DNA of 10,609 nt. Origin: a virus. Below the pieces are notes generated by a model. That model did no database searches. It saw only the letters and a program-made list of their open reading frames with translations, and had not been told where the DNA came from. The stretch lies in UHGV virus genome UHGV-0223590. One strand, 5' to 3'. Of the stretch, positions 1,615 through 4,401 are shown in pieces (positions within the stretch are counted from its first letter, which is position 1; the number at the start of each line of letters is the position of its first letter). The position numbers and the translations under genes are program-made.

Positions 1615-1834
1615 CTCACAATTCCACAGCTTGATGATTGTCTGGCTGCCGGAGAATTTGTTAAAAATTACATCGCATGGTGAATCCCCCTCAGCGGCGG
1701 GGCATCTGGCAAAGTGTATGATCCAGAGAACATGCAAATTCAGTAGACAGGCTGAATTTACCGGGAGTCCCCTGGCACCATGCGACAGACAGAAATTAGG
1801 CTATACTTCAGCCCCTCTCCGGAGGGGCTTTTCT
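1615..1834 (+). repeat. Repeat copy A (~220 bp), ends in terminator-like hairpin
   Basis: Aligns by eye with 2083-2301 over its length. Shared blocks include TTGTCTGGC, GTTAAAAA(T)T, GCATGGTGAATCCCCCT, a CCCCT-N6-AGGGG hairpin, CACCGGGAG, GGCACCATGC and the terminal AGCCCCTCTCCGGAGGGGCT. Confidence 0.6.
1810..1834 (+). terminator. Putative intrinsic terminator (8-bp GC-rich stem, 4-nt loop, TTTCT tail)
   Basis: AGCCCCTC/TCCG/GAGGGGCT is a perfect hairpin followed by TTTCT on the + strand. There is no U-run on the opposite strand. Confidence 0.5.
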
Positions 1835-2082
1835 GTGCAGGATGTGTCACAGTTTCCTGAATTCTGAGTACTGTCCTGTTACTCAGGGTGCTATATTTTC
1901 TGACGTGATGAAAGTCTGCCGGAAGGCGGAACGTATCGGAAATGACCCAGTAGAGAAAACGTTGACTCAGATACCGATGCTGAGTTACCGGGAAACCGGC
2001 ATCACATGACCGCTATCCTTCCAGGCTCGCTCCGGCGGGCCTTTTTACTGCAGAAAACAGTTTTCCCGTAAAATGCCACGTT

Positions 2083-2301
2083 GCTCATAATTCAGGCTGG
2101 CGATTATTGTCTGGCCGGCGGGAAGTTTGTTAAAAAATTTCGCATGGTGAATCCCCCTGTGCGGAGGGGTAATCAGCGAGTAGGTATATGGGATAATCGC
2201 GGATTCAGGTGCTGGTACTGAATTCACCGGGAGGCACCCGGCACCATGCAATGGCACATAGCGCCACTCTCCAGCCCCTCTCCGGAGGGGCTGTTTATAT
2301 T
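2083..2301 (+). repeat. Repeat copy B (~220 bp), diverged copy of 1615-1834
   Basis: Same block order as copy A, with substitutions and small indels. The terminal hairpin is identical (AGCCCCTC-TCCG-GAGGGGCT). Confidence 0.6.
2273..2301 (+). terminator. Putative intrinsic terminator (same hairpin, weaker GTTTATATT tail)
   Basis: Identical 8-bp stem and loop to 1810-1829, followed by GTTTATATT. Confidence 0.35.
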
Positions 2302-2907
2302 GATTTTGTCAGATGTGAGTAAACTCCTTATGGACTTTGTTGTTTTAGCCCATAAGGACATATTTGCAGAGTGCAACGGTTATTAAAGCATTCATTCAAT
2401 ACGTTATCTGTATTTGTAGGGCATTCCTGGCTGTTTTTGATTAAATTCCAGAATGTTTTATTGAATGGTACTACGTTGTAAATGGTTACAGGTAGCACTT
2501 TGTTATTGAGCATGATGCCTGTGTGAGTCAGTGTAAATATACTTTCAGGAGGTAAGAAAGCATCCGATTGATACCAGATTATTAATTTTATTTTACTCCA
2601 TATGACTGAAAAAGATATTCCGCATGATGGCTGGATAACTGTATCAATCACAATCCACTTCATTTAGTTTCCTTGTTTATGCCTTGCTGGTGATGTTCTG
2701 AAAAGTATAAATGATATTTTTGAATTAAACCATAGAGCAGAATTATTTTTCTGATGTTGTTTATTGTTTATTTAAATGCAGGGTGGTTTATATCTCGTCT
2801 TGTAGTTTATCCATGCATATCTGCTTGATGATGAGGTTTTTATTTAAGGTATGGTTTTGTGTTTTTTCTGTATTACATGTCAGGTATTTTAAAGAATCAT
2901 TTTTCAG

Positions 2908-4401
2908 ATGGTGGAAAGAACCATGGCATTTAAACACTATGATGTTGTCAGGGCGGCGTCGCCGTCAGATCTTGCGGAAAAGCTGACACATAAACTGAAA
3001 GAGGGCTGGCAGCCGTTTGGTAGTCCGGTGGCCATAACCCCTTATACCCTGATGCAGGCGATTGCAGCAGAAGGTGATGTGGTCGTCAGTGGTGCAACTG
3101 AGCCGGAGTGGTACTACGTCATCGTACTGGCCGGGCAATCCAATGCCATGGCTTACGGTGAAGGGCTTCCGCTTCCGGATTCATACGATGCGCCCCATCC
3201 GCGCATTAAGCAACTGGCCCGTCGTAACACAGTGACTCCCGGTGGTGAAGTATGCGTATTTAACGACATCATTCCTGCTGACCATTGTCTGCATGATGTT
3301 CAGGATATGAGTACGATTAATCATCCCCGGGCTGACCTGAGCAAAGGGCAGTACGGCTGTGTCGGACAGGGCTTACATATTGCCAAAAAACTGCTTCCGT
3401 ATATCCCTAATAACGCGGGGATCCTGCTGGTACCATGCTGTCGTGGTGGTTCGGCATTCACCCAGGGCACGGAGGGGACATTCAGCGAGTCCACGGGGGC
3501 CAGTCAGGATTCGGCTCGCTGGGGAGTGGGTAAGCCGTTATATCAGGATCTGCTTTTCCGCACGAAGGCAGCATTGCAGAAAAACCCGAAAAACGTTTTG
3601 CTGGCGATATGCTGGATGCAGGGGGAATTCGATATGACGAATGCCAGTTACGCCCAGCAGCCAGCAGCATTTCTTGCAATGGTACAGCAGTTCCGTGCTG
3701 ACCTTGCCGGGCTGGCGGCGCAGTGTCACGGTGGAAGTCCGGCATCAGTCCCCTGGATTTGTGGCGACACGACATACGCGTGGAAACAAGAACACGGTAC
3801 GCAATATGAAGTGGTATATGGTGCATATAAAGGTAAAGAATCCCAGCAGATTTATTTTGTTCCCTTTATGACCGATGGTAGCGGAGTTAATACACCGACA
3901 AACAACCCGTCAGAAGATCCTGATATTGCCGGGTCTGGTTATTACGGTTCGGCATCCCGAACGAACAAAAACTGGGTATCATCAAATCGCCCGACGCATT
4001 TCAGCTCATGGGCGCGTCGTGGCATTATTCCCGATCGTATGGCAACTGCTATTCTGAACGTAGCCGGTCGCACCTTAGCCTTCATTAGTGGTAAGGCACC
4101 GGAAATCAAACCCTCGCCCGGCGGCGACACGCCATCGGGGCCGTCTGAAGATGCATCCGTACGCACAATCTCCCTGTTGCCGACAGCCGGAGATGCTGCT
4201 GCGCAGGGCTGGAGCATTAAGAATGGCGGAATTCAGTTGTCAGATGGTGTATTTAAGATCACCAAGCAGAGCAATAAAACCTGGTCCCTGATGCATCCGG
4301 TGGATGACGCAGTCTCCCTGCTGACACGGGGTGGCAGACTGAGCTGTAAGTTTCGACTGTCAGGCGCACTGACCAACAACCAGTTCGGTCTGGGAATTTA
4401 G
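2908..4401 (+). CDS. nanS-p: Prophage-encoded NanS-p-like sialate O-acetylesterase (DUF1737-like N-terminal domain + SGNH/DUF303 esterase)
   Basis: 497-aa ORF. The N-terminus (MAFKHYDVVRAASPSDLAEKLTHKLKEGWQPFGSP...) matches the small DUF1737-type domain typical of these phage proteins. An SGNH block-I-like GQSNAMAYGEG follows. Sitting downstream of the late-region tRNA array is the canonical nanS-p position in Stx/lambdoid prophages. An alternative start at ATG 2923 (MAFKHYDV) is plausible. Confidence 0.8.
   Translation: MVERTMAFKHYDVVRAASPSDLAEKLTHKLKEGWQPFGSPVAITPYTLMQAIAAEGDVVVSGATEPEWYYVIVLAGQSNAMAYGEGLPLPDSYDAPHPRIKQLARRNTVTPGGEVCVFNDIIPADHCLHDVQDMSTINHPRADLSKGQYGCVGQGLHIAKKLLPYIPNNAGILLVPCCRGGSAFTQGTEGTFSESTGASQDSARWGVGKPLYQDLLFRTKAALQKNPKNVLLAICWMQGEFDMTNASYAQQPAAFLAMVQQFRADLAGLAAQCHGGSPASVPWICGDTTYAWKQEHGTQYEVVYGAYKGKESQQIYFVPFMTDGSGVNTPTNNPSEDPDIAGSGYYGSASRTNKNWVSSNRPTHFSSWARRGIIPDRMATAILNVAGRTLAFISGKAPEIKPSPGGDTPSGPSEDASVRTISLLPTAGDAAAQGWSIKNGGIQLSDGVFKITKQSNKTWSLMHPVDDAVSLLTRGGRLSCKFRLSGALTNNQFGLGI

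What the first reader, a model, noticed from the sequence alone, without database searches (positions are those of the whole stretch)
1615..2301. Two diverged ~220-bp repeats, each ending in the identical GC-rich hairpin (possible duplicated sRNA or tR'-like terminator modules)
Copies at about 1615-1834 and 2083-2301 share block order (GCATGGTGAATCCCCCT, an internal CCCCT-N6-AGGGG hairpin, GGCACCATGC, terminal AGCCCCTCTCCGGAGGGGCT). Only copy A has a good U-tail. They read in the direction of late transcription and carry no convincing ORF. The short ORFs called here differ between copies, which argues against coding. They could be tandem Q-dependent terminators, small RNA genes analogous to sRNAs arising from premature termination upstream of stx, or decayed tRNA-like elements (GGTGAATCCCC resembles a T-loop).
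Basis: seen in the sequence. Interest (0 to 1): 0.55.

Follow-up and report, generated by a model that had tools for sequence, protein, structure and literature searches.

The report
Three tandem STnc100-family prophage sRNA genes
The two repeats are copies of a known prophage small-RNA gene (Rfam STnc100, related to EcOnc27/sRNA103 and PasD), and an overlooked, more diverged third copy lies between them, so the locus is a known kind of element in a rarely described tandem arrangement.

Summary
Window 1615-1838 and 2083-2302 are two diverged copies of one unit, about 80% identical. Both match Rfam STnc100 (RF02076) over the full model at 132.9 and 132.5 bits (threshold 47). It scores 30 bits (E 5e-5) and keeps every helix through compensatory changes.

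Each unit looks like a complete gene:
- an extended -10 promoter;
- a start at the first base of an 8-bp closing helix, inferred from the mapped ends of the homologue PasD2;
- a roughly 105-nt multi-helix 5' domain;
- a variable single-stranded linker, which is the seed position in PasD;
- a GC hairpin terminator.

Covariation across 47 distinct homologues supports the fold. It also reveals a pseudoknot that the Rfam structure line lacks.

The family is already known. Members are transcribed, Northern-verified and Hfq-bound in EHEC and EPEC, at the moron site of lambdoid prophages. The tR'-like, tRNA-like and coding readings are not supported.

The A-M-B triple occurs in about 12% of complete E. 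coli genomes and is not annotated in the RefSeq record inspected. Verdict: already known family. The modest additions are the tandem array, unit M, the pseudoknot and the promoter reading.

The parts
1615..1674 (+). Unit A upstream and promoter DNA. Conserved box CTCACAATTCC at 1615-1625, -35-like TTGTCT at 1638-1643, an 18-nt spacer, and TGTTAAAAAT (extended -10 type) at 1659-1668.
   Evidence: This stretch is conserved between A and B and across the unique upstream sequences of 139 homologous units. It lies upstream of the position matching the RNA-seq-mapped 5' end of PasD2. Promoter function is inferred.
1675..1783 (+). Unit A structured 5' domain. P1 is 1675-1682 paired with 1776-1783, enclosing hairpins P2, P3, P5 and P6. 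The pseudoknot is weak in this copy.
   Evidence: Rfam STnc100 132.9 bits for 1645-1838. The minimum-energy fold reproduces P1, P2, P5 and P6, z -2.8. The J/loop duplex is only -3.2 kcal/mol.
1784..1809 (+). Unit A single-stranded linker GACAGACAGAAAUUAGGCUAUACUUC, the presumed seed. It is related to the linker of the stx2-linked STnc100 in 933W.
   Evidence: Unpaired in the minimum-energy and centroid folds. It occupies the position of the PasD seed. Similarity to the 933W linker is seen.
1810..1834 (+). Unit A intrinsic terminator: stem-loop 1810-1829 followed by UUUUC.
   Evidence: Terminator scan, fold, Rfam terminal helix.
1846..1902 (+). Unit M upstream and promoter DNA. Box GTCACAGTTTC at 1846-1856 and the extended -10 TGCTATATT at 1889-1897.
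   Evidence: CAGGGTGCTATATTTTC is invariant between the two M variants, which are 86% identical, while the -35 region differs. It is in the same register relative to P1 as in A and B. Function is inferred.
1903..2007 (+). Unit M structured 5' domain. P1 is 1903-1910 paired with 2000-2007, with one C.A mismatch. P2 is 1915-1920 paired with 1925-1930, P5 is GACUCAG paired with CUGAGUU, and P6 is CCGG paired with CCGG. The pseudoknot pairs UAUCGG (1934-1939) with CCGAUG (1974-1979).
   Evidence: Full-length alignment to RF02076 at 30 bits, E 5e-5, below the threshold of 47. Compensatory changes relative to A and B, and between the M variants. The fold has z -2.6 and picks the pseudoknot helix.
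2008..2022 (+). Unit M linker GACCGCUAUCCUUCC, the presumed seed, pyrimidine-rich.
   Evidence: Unpaired in the fold and invariant between the M variants.
2023..2047 (+). Unit M intrinsic terminator AGGCUCGCUCCGGCGGGCCU followed by UUUU, which is five consecutive U counting the last stem base. This is the best U-tail of the three units.
   Evidence: Terminator scan. A 74% copy of the A and B hairpin with compensatory stem changes. Fold.
2083..2141 (+). Unit B upstream and promoter DNA. Box CTCATAATTCA at 2084-2094, -35-like TTGTCT at 2107-2112, an 18-nt spacer, and TGTTAAAAA at 2128-2136.
   Evidence: Function is inferred.
2142..2249 (+). Unit B structured 5' domain. P1 is 2142-2149 paired with 2242-2249. 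The pseudoknot pairs AUCAGC (2172-2177) with GCUGGU (2211-2216).
   Evidence: Rfam STnc100 132.5 bits for 2114-2302. Fold z -3.2. Covariation. It differs by one base from the commonest 5' domain in the viral-contig sample.
2250..2271 (+). Unit B linker AAUGGCACAUAGCGCCACUCUC, the presumed seed. It is partly a small hairpin, with CUCUCC exposed.
   Evidence: Fold. The same linker recurs with other 5' domains and terminators in homologues.
2272..2302 (+). Unit B terminator hairpin 2272-2293 with an interrupted U-tail UUUAUAUUG.
   Evidence: Terminator scan, Rfam, fold.

Best explanation
Window 1615-2302 holds three tandem, same-strand, independently transcribed small-RNA genes of the STnc100/PasD family. 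They sit at the 'moron' site of a lambdoid prophage late region, between Q/pR'/tRNAs and the lysis genes.

Each gene has the same parts:
- a sigma-70 promoter of extended -10 type;
- a transcript that starts at or near the first base of an 8-bp closing helix;
- a compact 5' domain of about 105 nt (P1, P2, a variable insert, P5, P6, and a pseudoknot between the strand after P2 and the P5 loop);
- a 15-26-nt mostly unpaired linker that differs among A, M and B;
- a GC-rich intrinsic terminator.

By analogy with PasD1/PasD2 and EcOnc27/sRNA103, the RNAs most likely bind Hfq through the terminator and U-tail. They would base-pair with host or prophage mRNAs through the linker seed, so the three units give three target specificities from one scaffold. 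The terminators also stop these promoters from reading into the downstream late genes in a lysogen.

Shown here: the repeats, family membership of A and B, the homology and fold of M, covariation, and genomic context. Inferred: promoter activity, exact RNA ends, Hfq dependence, and seed function.
For: - **Family membership.** A and B match RF02076 end to end at 132.9 and 132.5 bits, against a threshold of 47.
- **Unit M.** It aligns to the whole model (30 bits, E 5e-5) with compensatory changes in P1, P2, P5 and the terminator.
- **Transcript ends.** The RNA-seq-mapped ends of PasD2 (NC_011601 741157-741328) and PasD1 run from the G of GCATGGTG to the end of the U-tract. That places the start of transcription at the first base of P1.
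- **Promoter.** The TGTTAAAA block and the TTGNCT 18 nt upstream of it are the most conserved upstream columns across 89 unique units. M has TGCTATATT in the same register.
- **Structure.** On 47 distinct homologues 94.8% of cells pair, against 34-45% when partners are slid. Fifteen pairs change on both sides, and all six pseudoknot pairs covary. Cognate J/loop duplexes average -9.1 kcal/mol against -3.8 for non-cognate pairs. Single-sequence folds give z of -2.6 to -3.2.
- **Expression of family members.** Eleven STnc100 copies are listed in EDL933; ten have hundreds to thousands of transcriptome reads (RPKM 97-1897) and one is Northern-verified. EcOnc27/sRNA103 is Hfq-crosslinked and Northern-verified. 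PasD1 and PasD2 are abundant RIL-seq sRNAs, and their predicted seed lies in the linker.
- **Context.** The order is Q, methyltransferase, tRNAs, DUF3927, units, esterase, lysis genes. This matches the PasD loci and the Stx-phage locus.
- **Not coding.**
Against: - There are no expression data for this locus or this strain background.
- The transcription start is transferred by homology from PasD, with an uncertainty of a few nucleotides. In unit A the -10 to P1 spacing is 2 nt longer.
- U-tails are short (A has 4 U, M has 5 U) or interrupted (B). That predicts weaker termination and weaker Hfq binding than PasD, which has 8 U.
- Unit A has a nearly lost pseudoknot (-3.2 kcal/mol), and unit M has a C.A mismatch in P1, so some copies may be decaying.
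- The prophage in the window has lost its lysis cassette.
- No direct target has been established for any STnc100 member. The reported fimZ and espA effects of sRNA103 have no known mechanism.
- A 105-nt pseudoknotted domain is more structure than a plain seed-plus-terminator sRNA needs.
Confidence: 0.78

Rival explanations
1. The units act mainly in cis as a stack of intrinsic terminators or insulators in the late operon. They would be read through only by Q-modified RNA polymerase and would keep the lysis genes silent in the lysogen. On this view the RNAs are by-products.
For: There are three + strand terminator-like hairpins within 700 bp, against 1.9 expected in shuffles. They lie on the late-transcript strand between Q/pR' and the lysis genes.
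Against: - The conserved part is not the terminator. It is the 105-nt 5' domain and the promoter.
- Terminator sequences are swapped freely among homologues.
- A tR'-like terminator already sits about 85 nt after Q.
- Homologues accumulate as discrete Hfq-bound RNAs in uninduced cells.
- Two of the three U-tails are poor.

This role can coexist with the best explanation as a secondary effect.
Confidence: 0.1
2. The conserved pseudoknotted 5' domain is the functional core. It would be a protein- or ligand-binding or otherwise autonomous structured RNA, with seed pairing secondary or absent.
For: Junction nucleotides are nearly invariant, peripheral helices covary, and the pseudoknot is maintained in at least seven different sequence versions. 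One 5' domain is combined with several different linkers and terminators. The Rfam E-value scan of 1380-2950 found no other family matching the units.
Against: - RIL-seq chimeras and the predicted seed of PasD map to the 3' linker, not the 5' domain.
- PasD has lost P6.
- Unit A has almost lost the pseudoknot.
- No partner or ligand is known.
- A 5' end sequestered in a helix is a common stabilising feature of sRNAs.
Confidence: 0.15
3. The near-identical blocks act at the DNA level as recombination linkers that let lambdoid prophages exchange moron cargo. The tandem array would be a recombination scar.
For: There are up to 12 matching places per genome. 5' domains, linkers and terminators occur in mosaic combinations. 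In 11 of 13 loci M is flanked by canonical units of differing type.
Against: This does not explain RNA-level covariation, including the pseudoknot. It also does not explain the conserved promoter or the observed transcripts of homologues. Recombination is a likely origin of the array, not a function.
Confidence: 0.05
4. The units are decayed tRNA-like elements or fragments of a protein-coding gene.
For: They lie next to phage tRNA genes and a truncated third tRNA. The fold is a multi-helix junction closed by an 8-bp stem. RefSeq places a minus-strand pseudogene over unit B.
Against: - ARAGORN and the Rfam tRNA model find nothing in 1600-2302.
- The six overlapping ORFs have no Pfam match.
- Homologue lengths of 99-127 nt fall in all three classes mod 3.
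- No frame is open in more than 29 of 47 homologues.
Confidence: 0.02

Closest known systems
STnc100 (Rfam RF02076, 'Gammaproteobacterial sRNA STnc100')
   Same: Units A and B are members. They match the full model at 132.9 and 132.5 bits (threshold 47), with the same helices and the same prophage context. One phage record already annotates a homologue under this name.
   Different: Unit M scores only 30 bits. Judged by the mapped 5' end of PasD, the first 29 or so model positions are promoter DNA, not RNA. The consensus structure line printed by cmscan lacks the J/P5-loop pseudoknot supported here.
EcOnc27 / sRNA103, the STnc100 copy 75 nt downstream of stx2B in Stx2 phages
   Same: Same family (207.7 bits in 933W). 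It sits at the same place in the late region, on the same strand, and its linker type is related to that of unit A. It is Hfq-crosslinked and Northern-verified.
   Different: In Stx phages it is a single unit paired with a convergent anti-sRNA, AsxR or AgvB. Here there are three same-strand units, no AsxR or AgvB, and an iraM homologue on the opposite strand instead.
PasD1 / PasD2 of EPEC E2348/69 (EcOnc13 homologues)
   Same: They are structural homologues of STnc100 that also fall below the Rfam threshold (37.7 and 41.4 bits), like unit M. The context is the same: Q, a hypothetical gene, DUF3927, the sRNA, then esterase or holin. Their ends are mapped from the first base of P1 to the U-tract.
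   Different: M is not PasD-like in sequence. PasD lacks P6 and has a different seed (UUGUGAG), a different terminator and an 8-U tail. The preprint describes Pas copies as distal, not tandem.
Tandem 'sibling' sRNAs such as OmrA/OmrB and PrrF1/PrrF2
   Same: Adjacent paralogous sRNA genes, each with its own promoter and terminator, sharing some parts and differing in others. This comparison rests on established knowledge and on citations.
   Different: Those pairs are core-genome genes. Here the shared part is a large structured 5' domain and the variable part is the 3' linker.
Lambda tR'/6S RNA and StxS (short pR' transcript ending at tR')
   Same: A short non-coding RNA on the late strand that ends at an intrinsic terminator read through during lytic growth. 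This rests on established knowledge.
   Different: Those RNAs start at pR' next to Q and are defined by the Q-utilisation site. The units here lie 2.1-2.8 kb further downstream, have their own promoters, and show no sequence relation.

Membership tests
STnc100 (RF02076), units A and B | Score at or above the curated Rfam gathering threshold (47 bits) over the full model | tested here: met
   132.9 bits (1645-1838) and 132.5 bits (2114-2302), model positions 1-206.
STnc100 (RF02076), unit M | Score at or above the curated Rfam gathering threshold (47 bits) | tested here: not met
   30.0 bits, E 5e-5 to 2.8e-4, model positions 1-206. M is therefore filed as an STnc100-like diverged relative, like PasD at 37.7-41.4 bits.
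STnc100 family, all three units | Consensus architecture: closing helix P1 enclosing hairpins P2, P5 and P6, then a linker and a terminator hairpin | tested here: met
   cmscan alignments. Minimum-energy folds. Pair counts on 47 homologues give 94.8% paired against 34-45% for slid partners.
STnc100 family | Location in the late region ('moron' site) of a lambdoid prophage, on the late-transcript strand | tested here: met
   RefSeq annotation of the 99.9% identical locus: Q, methyltransferase, tRNAs, DUF3927, units, esterase, holin and lysozyme. The layout is the same in E2348/69 and 933W.
STnc100 family / Hfq-dependent sRNA | Accumulates as a discrete RNA and binds Hfq | not testable with these tools
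   Only literature on homologues is available. The U-tails here are short or interrupted.
PasD | Sequence-level similarity to PasD1/PasD2, including the UUGUGAG seed and the GGCUGCGC terminator | tested here: not met
   None of A, M or B carries the PasD linker or terminator. The alignment shows similarity only in the shared 5' domain.
tRNA or tRNA-like element | Cloverleaf recognised by ARAGORN or the Rfam tRNA model | tested here: not met
   ARAGORN finds tRNAs only at 1219-1294 and 1304-1380. There is no tRNA hit at E up to 5 in 1380-2950.
Lambda-type tR' (Q-dependent terminator of the pR' transcript) | Lies directly downstream of pR'/qut next to the Q gene | tested here: not met
   Q ends at L001 7346, and unit A begins at L001 about 9416. 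A strong terminator-like site at L001 7429-7444 fills the expected tR' position.
AsxR/AgvB anti-sRNAs (RF02703, RF02702) | Rfam match on the strand opposite to STnc100, convergent with it | tested here: not met
   Present in 933W at 88.1 bits. Absent from the window at the gathering threshold and at E up to 5 in 1380-2950.

The most novel reading that the evidence does not exclude
The STnc100/PasD scaffold may be more than a stabilising 5' hairpin. It is a conserved, pseudoknotted RNA domain of about 105 nt that could have a function of its own, such as binding a protein or a ligand, or acting as a decoy. Interchangeable seed and terminator modules are fused to it. On this reading the A-M-B array is a three-channel version of one structured regulator. 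A related possibility is that promoter-core polymorphisms of the stx2-linked copy underlie the HUS-predictive markers reported downstream of stx2B.
Probability: 0.18. Interest if true: 0.55.

Novelty: already known. Interest (0 to 1): 0.24.

Why it matters
STnc100-family RNAs are among the most numerous prophage sRNAs in pathogenic E. coli, with up to 12 matching places per genome. One copy sits right after stx2B and overlaps markers that predict HUS. Even so, no direct target or mechanism is established for any member.

This locus adds four points to a known family:
- The family also forms tandem arrays of three genes with three different linkers.
- A diverged subtype (unit M) is missed by the Rfam threshold and is not annotated in the RefSeq record inspected. 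It occurs in about 12% of complete E. coli genomes.
- The 5' portion of the Rfam model is probably promoter DNA rather than RNA.
- The fold contains a well-supported pseudoknot.

These points sharpen annotation and give concrete constructs for experiments. They do not reveal a new kind of system.

Tried and rejected
- **Genome-contig scan.** I used the 15-specified-base pattern GCATGGTGAATCCNCC. I therefore have no taxonomic breadth outside E. coli and IMG/VR contigs. A longer gapped pattern worked on viral contigs.
- **Is unit M a PasD copy?** No. The alignment shows only the shared scaffold.
- **tRNA-like origin.** Rejected.
- **Coding on either strand.** Rejected.
- **Other Rfam families in 1380-2950.** At E up to 5 there are only noise-level snoRNA, istR and Rev41 hits.
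- **PasA/PasC-like sRNA elsewhere in the window.** A BLAST of the E2348/69 esterase-holin spacer found nothing, consistent with the deletion of that region.
- **Minus-strand promoter-like matches.** The generic promoter scan reported only these, inside the conserved block (TTAACA-16-GACAAT at 1664-1637 and 2133-2106). I did not adopt them because the PasD homologues lack a usable minus-strand -10 there and the mapped RNAs are on the + strand.
- **Custom covariance model.** I did not build one. The Rfam model was already independent of unit M.
Full report
**1. The observation**

Reading 1300-2700, the pairwise alignment and the repeat finder confirm two diverged copies of one unit. The copies are about 80% identical. 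They share four blocks in the same order, and both end in the identical hairpin AGCCCCTCTCCGGAGGGGCT (1810-1829 and 2273-2292).

**2. Identity**

A gathering-threshold Rfam scan of the whole window gives four hits. Two are tRNAs, at 1219-1291 and 1304-1377. The other two are full-length matches to STnc100 (RF02076): 1645-1838 at 132.9 bits and 2114-2302 at 132.5 bits, against a threshold of 47 and with E about 1e-29. The repeats are therefore members of a curated sRNA family.

The literature held here supports the family as real RNA:
- Eleven STnc100 copies are listed in EHEC EDL933. Ten have hundreds to thousands of transcriptome reads (RPKM 97-1897), and one is Northern-verified.
- The copy 75 nt downstream of stx2B corresponds to the Hfq-crosslinked, Northern-verified sRNA EcOnc27/sRNA103.
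- The abundant RIL-seq sRNAs PasD1 and PasD2 of EPEC E2348/69 are structural homologues of STnc100.
- Tree et al. placed these genes at the 'moron' site 3' of pR' in at least eight Sakai prophages, usually as convergent dyads with an anti-sRNA, AsxR or AgvB.

**3. A third unit**

The repeat finder lists a 74% copy of the terminal hairpin at 2019-2045. An E-value-threshold Rfam scan aligns 1874-2049 to the whole STnc100 model at 30 bits, with E 2.8e-4 in 1.6 kb and 5e-5 in 281 nt. I call this unit M. It keeps every helix, but with different sequence:
- P1 is ACGUGAUG paired with CAUCACAU. That is three double compensatory changes and one C.A mismatch relative to GCAUGGUG/CACCAUGC.
- P2 is CUGCC paired with GGCGG.
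- P5 is GACUCAG paired with CUGAGUU.
- P6 is CCGG paired with CCGG.
- The terminator is AGGCUCGC paired with GCGGGCCU, with two compensatory pairs and one wobble.

A second M variant, 86% identical, occurs in other prophages. It repairs the P1 mismatch (U-A) and carries further compensatory and wobble changes in P2. M is not PasD-like beyond the shared scaffold. PasD itself scores only 37.7-41.4 bits, so the Rfam threshold misses diverged branches of this family.

**4. Anatomy of a unit**

PasD2 (NC_011601 741157-741328) and PasD1 (1060260-1060432) were delimited by RNA-seq coverage. In the fetched loci these coordinates run exactly from the G of GCATGGTG to the last U of the terminator tail. 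The RNA therefore begins at the first base of the closing helix. The first 29 or so positions of the Rfam model are upstream DNA.

That upstream DNA is where the repeat homology starts. It contains the most conserved upstream columns among 89 unique units:
- a -35-like hexamer, TTGTCT in A and B and TTGACT in PasD;
- an 18-nt spacer;
- TGTTAAAA, which is of the extended -10 type.

M carries TGCTATATT in the same register, and this block is invariant between the two M variants although the -35 region differs. Downstream of the start come the 5' domain (99-127 nt in homologues), a linker of 15-26 nt in the window's units and the terminator. The linker is unpaired in the folds. It is where the predicted PasD seed lies, and PasD1 RIL-seq chimeric fragments map to the 3' ~50 nt that contains it.

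The three window units have three different linkers:
- A has GACAGACAGAAAUUAGGCUAUACUUC, related to the 933W/EcOnc27 type.
- M has GACCGCUAUCCUUCC.
- B has AAUGGCACAUAGCGCCACUCUC.

Across homologues, one 5' domain is found joined to several linker and terminator types. Promoter activity, the exact start and seed function are inferences.

**5. Structure**

A viral-contig scan with a gapped pattern returned 120 loci. Together with the window and three fetched E. coli loci these hold 139 units, with 48 unique 5' domains. I aligned 45 of these plus the two M variants and counted pairs for P1, P2, P5, P6 and a candidate pseudoknot.
- 94.8% of cells pair, against 34-45% when the 3' partners are slid by 1-3 columns.
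- Fifteen pairs change on both sides, against 7.2 +/- 1.6 in shuffles (0 of 500 shuffles reach the observed value).

The pseudoknot joins the strand just 3' of P2 to the loop of P5. All six of its pairs covary. It exists in at least seven sequence versions:
- AUCAGC with GCUGAU, or with GCUGGU
- AUCAGU with ACUGAU
- CUGGUG with CACCAG, or with CACCGG
- CUGGCU with AGCCAG
- AAUGAUC with GAUCAUU (PasD)
- AAUGAC with GUCAUU
- UAUCGG with CCGAUG (unit M)

One variant makes the same helix in nested form (GUGAUACC with GGUAUCAC). Cognate J/loop duplexes average -9.1 kcal/mol, against -3.8 for 294 non-cognate combinations (Mann-Whitney p 1.7e-11, not corrected for relatedness).

Caveats: P1, P2 and P6 are nearly invariant in the sample, partly because my search pattern required them. 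Their covariation rests mainly on M. Unit A is the outlier, with an almost lost pseudoknot (-3.2 kcal/mol). The structure line printed by cmscan does not show this helix, and the most relevant preprint does not mention a pseudoknot or a promoter. I cannot exclude that the pseudoknot is annotated elsewhere.

**6. Not coding, not tRNA, not tR'**

- The six ORFs overlapping the units have no Pfam family.
- Homologue lengths fall in all classes mod 3, and no frame is open in more than 29 of 47 homologues.
- ARAGORN and the Rfam tRNA model find nothing in the units.
- In the intact relative DA33133 the Q gene ends about 2.1 kb upstream of unit A. A strong terminator-like site lies about 85 nt after Q, the expected tR' position.

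**7. Distribution and context**

The window is 99.9% identical to a prophage in many human E. coli isolates.
- The A-M-B block is covered at 80% or more in 669 of 5,426 complete genomes.
- M is found in 673 genomes, in two variants. No annotated feature lies under 13 of the 14 listed matches.
- In 11 of 13 loci that hold M it is flanked on both sides by canonical units, which can be of different types.
- Some part of the block matches in 2,862 genomes, at up to 12 places per genome.
- The RefSeq record inspected annotates no ncRNA here, only a minus-strand pseudogene over unit B. One phage record does label a homologue as STnc100.

In 933W the single STnc100 (207.7 bits) is followed by the convergent anti-sRNA AsxR at 88.1 bits. 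In the window no AsxR or AgvB is present, and an iraM homologue occupies the opposite strand.

**8. Mechanism and rivals**

The best-supported reading is three sibling sRNA genes of the STnc100/PasD family. Each has its own promoter and terminator. They share a structured scaffold and differ in the presumed seed, and they probably act through Hfq as their characterised relatives do. The terminators additionally insulate the downstream late genes from these promoters.

Four rivals were weighed:
- A primary role as cis terminators is weakened because the 5' domain and promoter are conserved, not the terminator.
- An autonomous function of the 5' domain is not excluded, and it is the most novel reading left.
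- A DNA-level role as a recombination linker is a plausible origin for the array but does not explain RNA covariation.
- A tRNA-like or coding origin is disfavoured by direct tests.

Weaknesses of the best reading are the lack of expression data for this locus, short or interrupted U-tails, signs of decay in A and M, and the absence of a proven direct target for any family member.

**9. Verdict**

The element belongs to a known, curated and experimentally detected family, so novelty is low. The additions are the unnoticed third unit and the recurrent triple array, the promoter reading of the 5' end of the Rfam model, and the covariation-supported pseudoknot.

Noticed in passing
window ~4398-4400 (junction); L001 12206-14481: The window lacks 2,276 bp that are present in the otherwise 99%-identical prophage of strain DA33133. 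The missing stretch holds the 3' end of the SASA/NanS-p esterase gene, holin, YdfR, lysozyme and the Rz-like lysis gene. The window's prophage should therefore be lysis-defective, and ORF 2908-4401 is a truncated esterase.
   Followed up: partly
window ~1390-1430 and 1440-1556: The 5' half of a third tRNA (argO-like, anticodon loop CTTCTAA) follows tRNA-Arg. ARAGORN and Rfam do not call it. Right after it lies a 38-aa DUF3927 ORF (Pfam 42.6 bits). The same small ORF precedes PasD1 and PasD2 in E2348/69.
   Followed up: partly
window 2328-2663 (-): A prophage-borne homologue of the RpoS anti-adaptor IraM (NCBIfam PRK09919, 162 bits against a cutoff of 121) converges on unit B. It occupies the position that the anti-sRNA AsxR or AgvB holds in Stx phages.
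   Followed up: partly
window 1615-1625, 1846-1856, 2084-2094; also L244 662-672: A conserved box (C/G)TCACA(A/G)TT(C/T)(C/A) lies about 47-60 nt upstream of each unit's inferred start, and also upstream of the 933W copy. It could be an upstream promoter element or a regulator site. Its function is unknown.
   Followed up: no
L244 615-718 (933W) vs L245 (Stx2c phage): In 933W the inferred STnc100 start (G718) is 104 nt after the stx2B stop. The HUS-predictive changes reported at +90 and +103 (PMC12711010) therefore fall in the inferred extended -10/discriminator, not in the RNA. In the one Stx2c phage compared, the whole stx2B-to-start spacer is identical to 933W except for two changes inside that promoter core. 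This suggests a promoter-strength polymorphism. I did not test it.
   Followed up: partly
window 1664-1637 and 2133-2106 (-): The conserved promoter block also reads as a sigma-70-like site on the minus strand (TTAACA, 16 nt, GACAAT; 9 of 12 matches) in units A and B. The PasD homologues do not preserve it. Antisense transcription was not examined.
   Followed up: no
L001 3956-4130: The intact relative carries a hokD/sok type I toxin-antitoxin locus (Rfam sok, 114 bits) upstream of the Q region. This lies outside the window.
   Followed up: no
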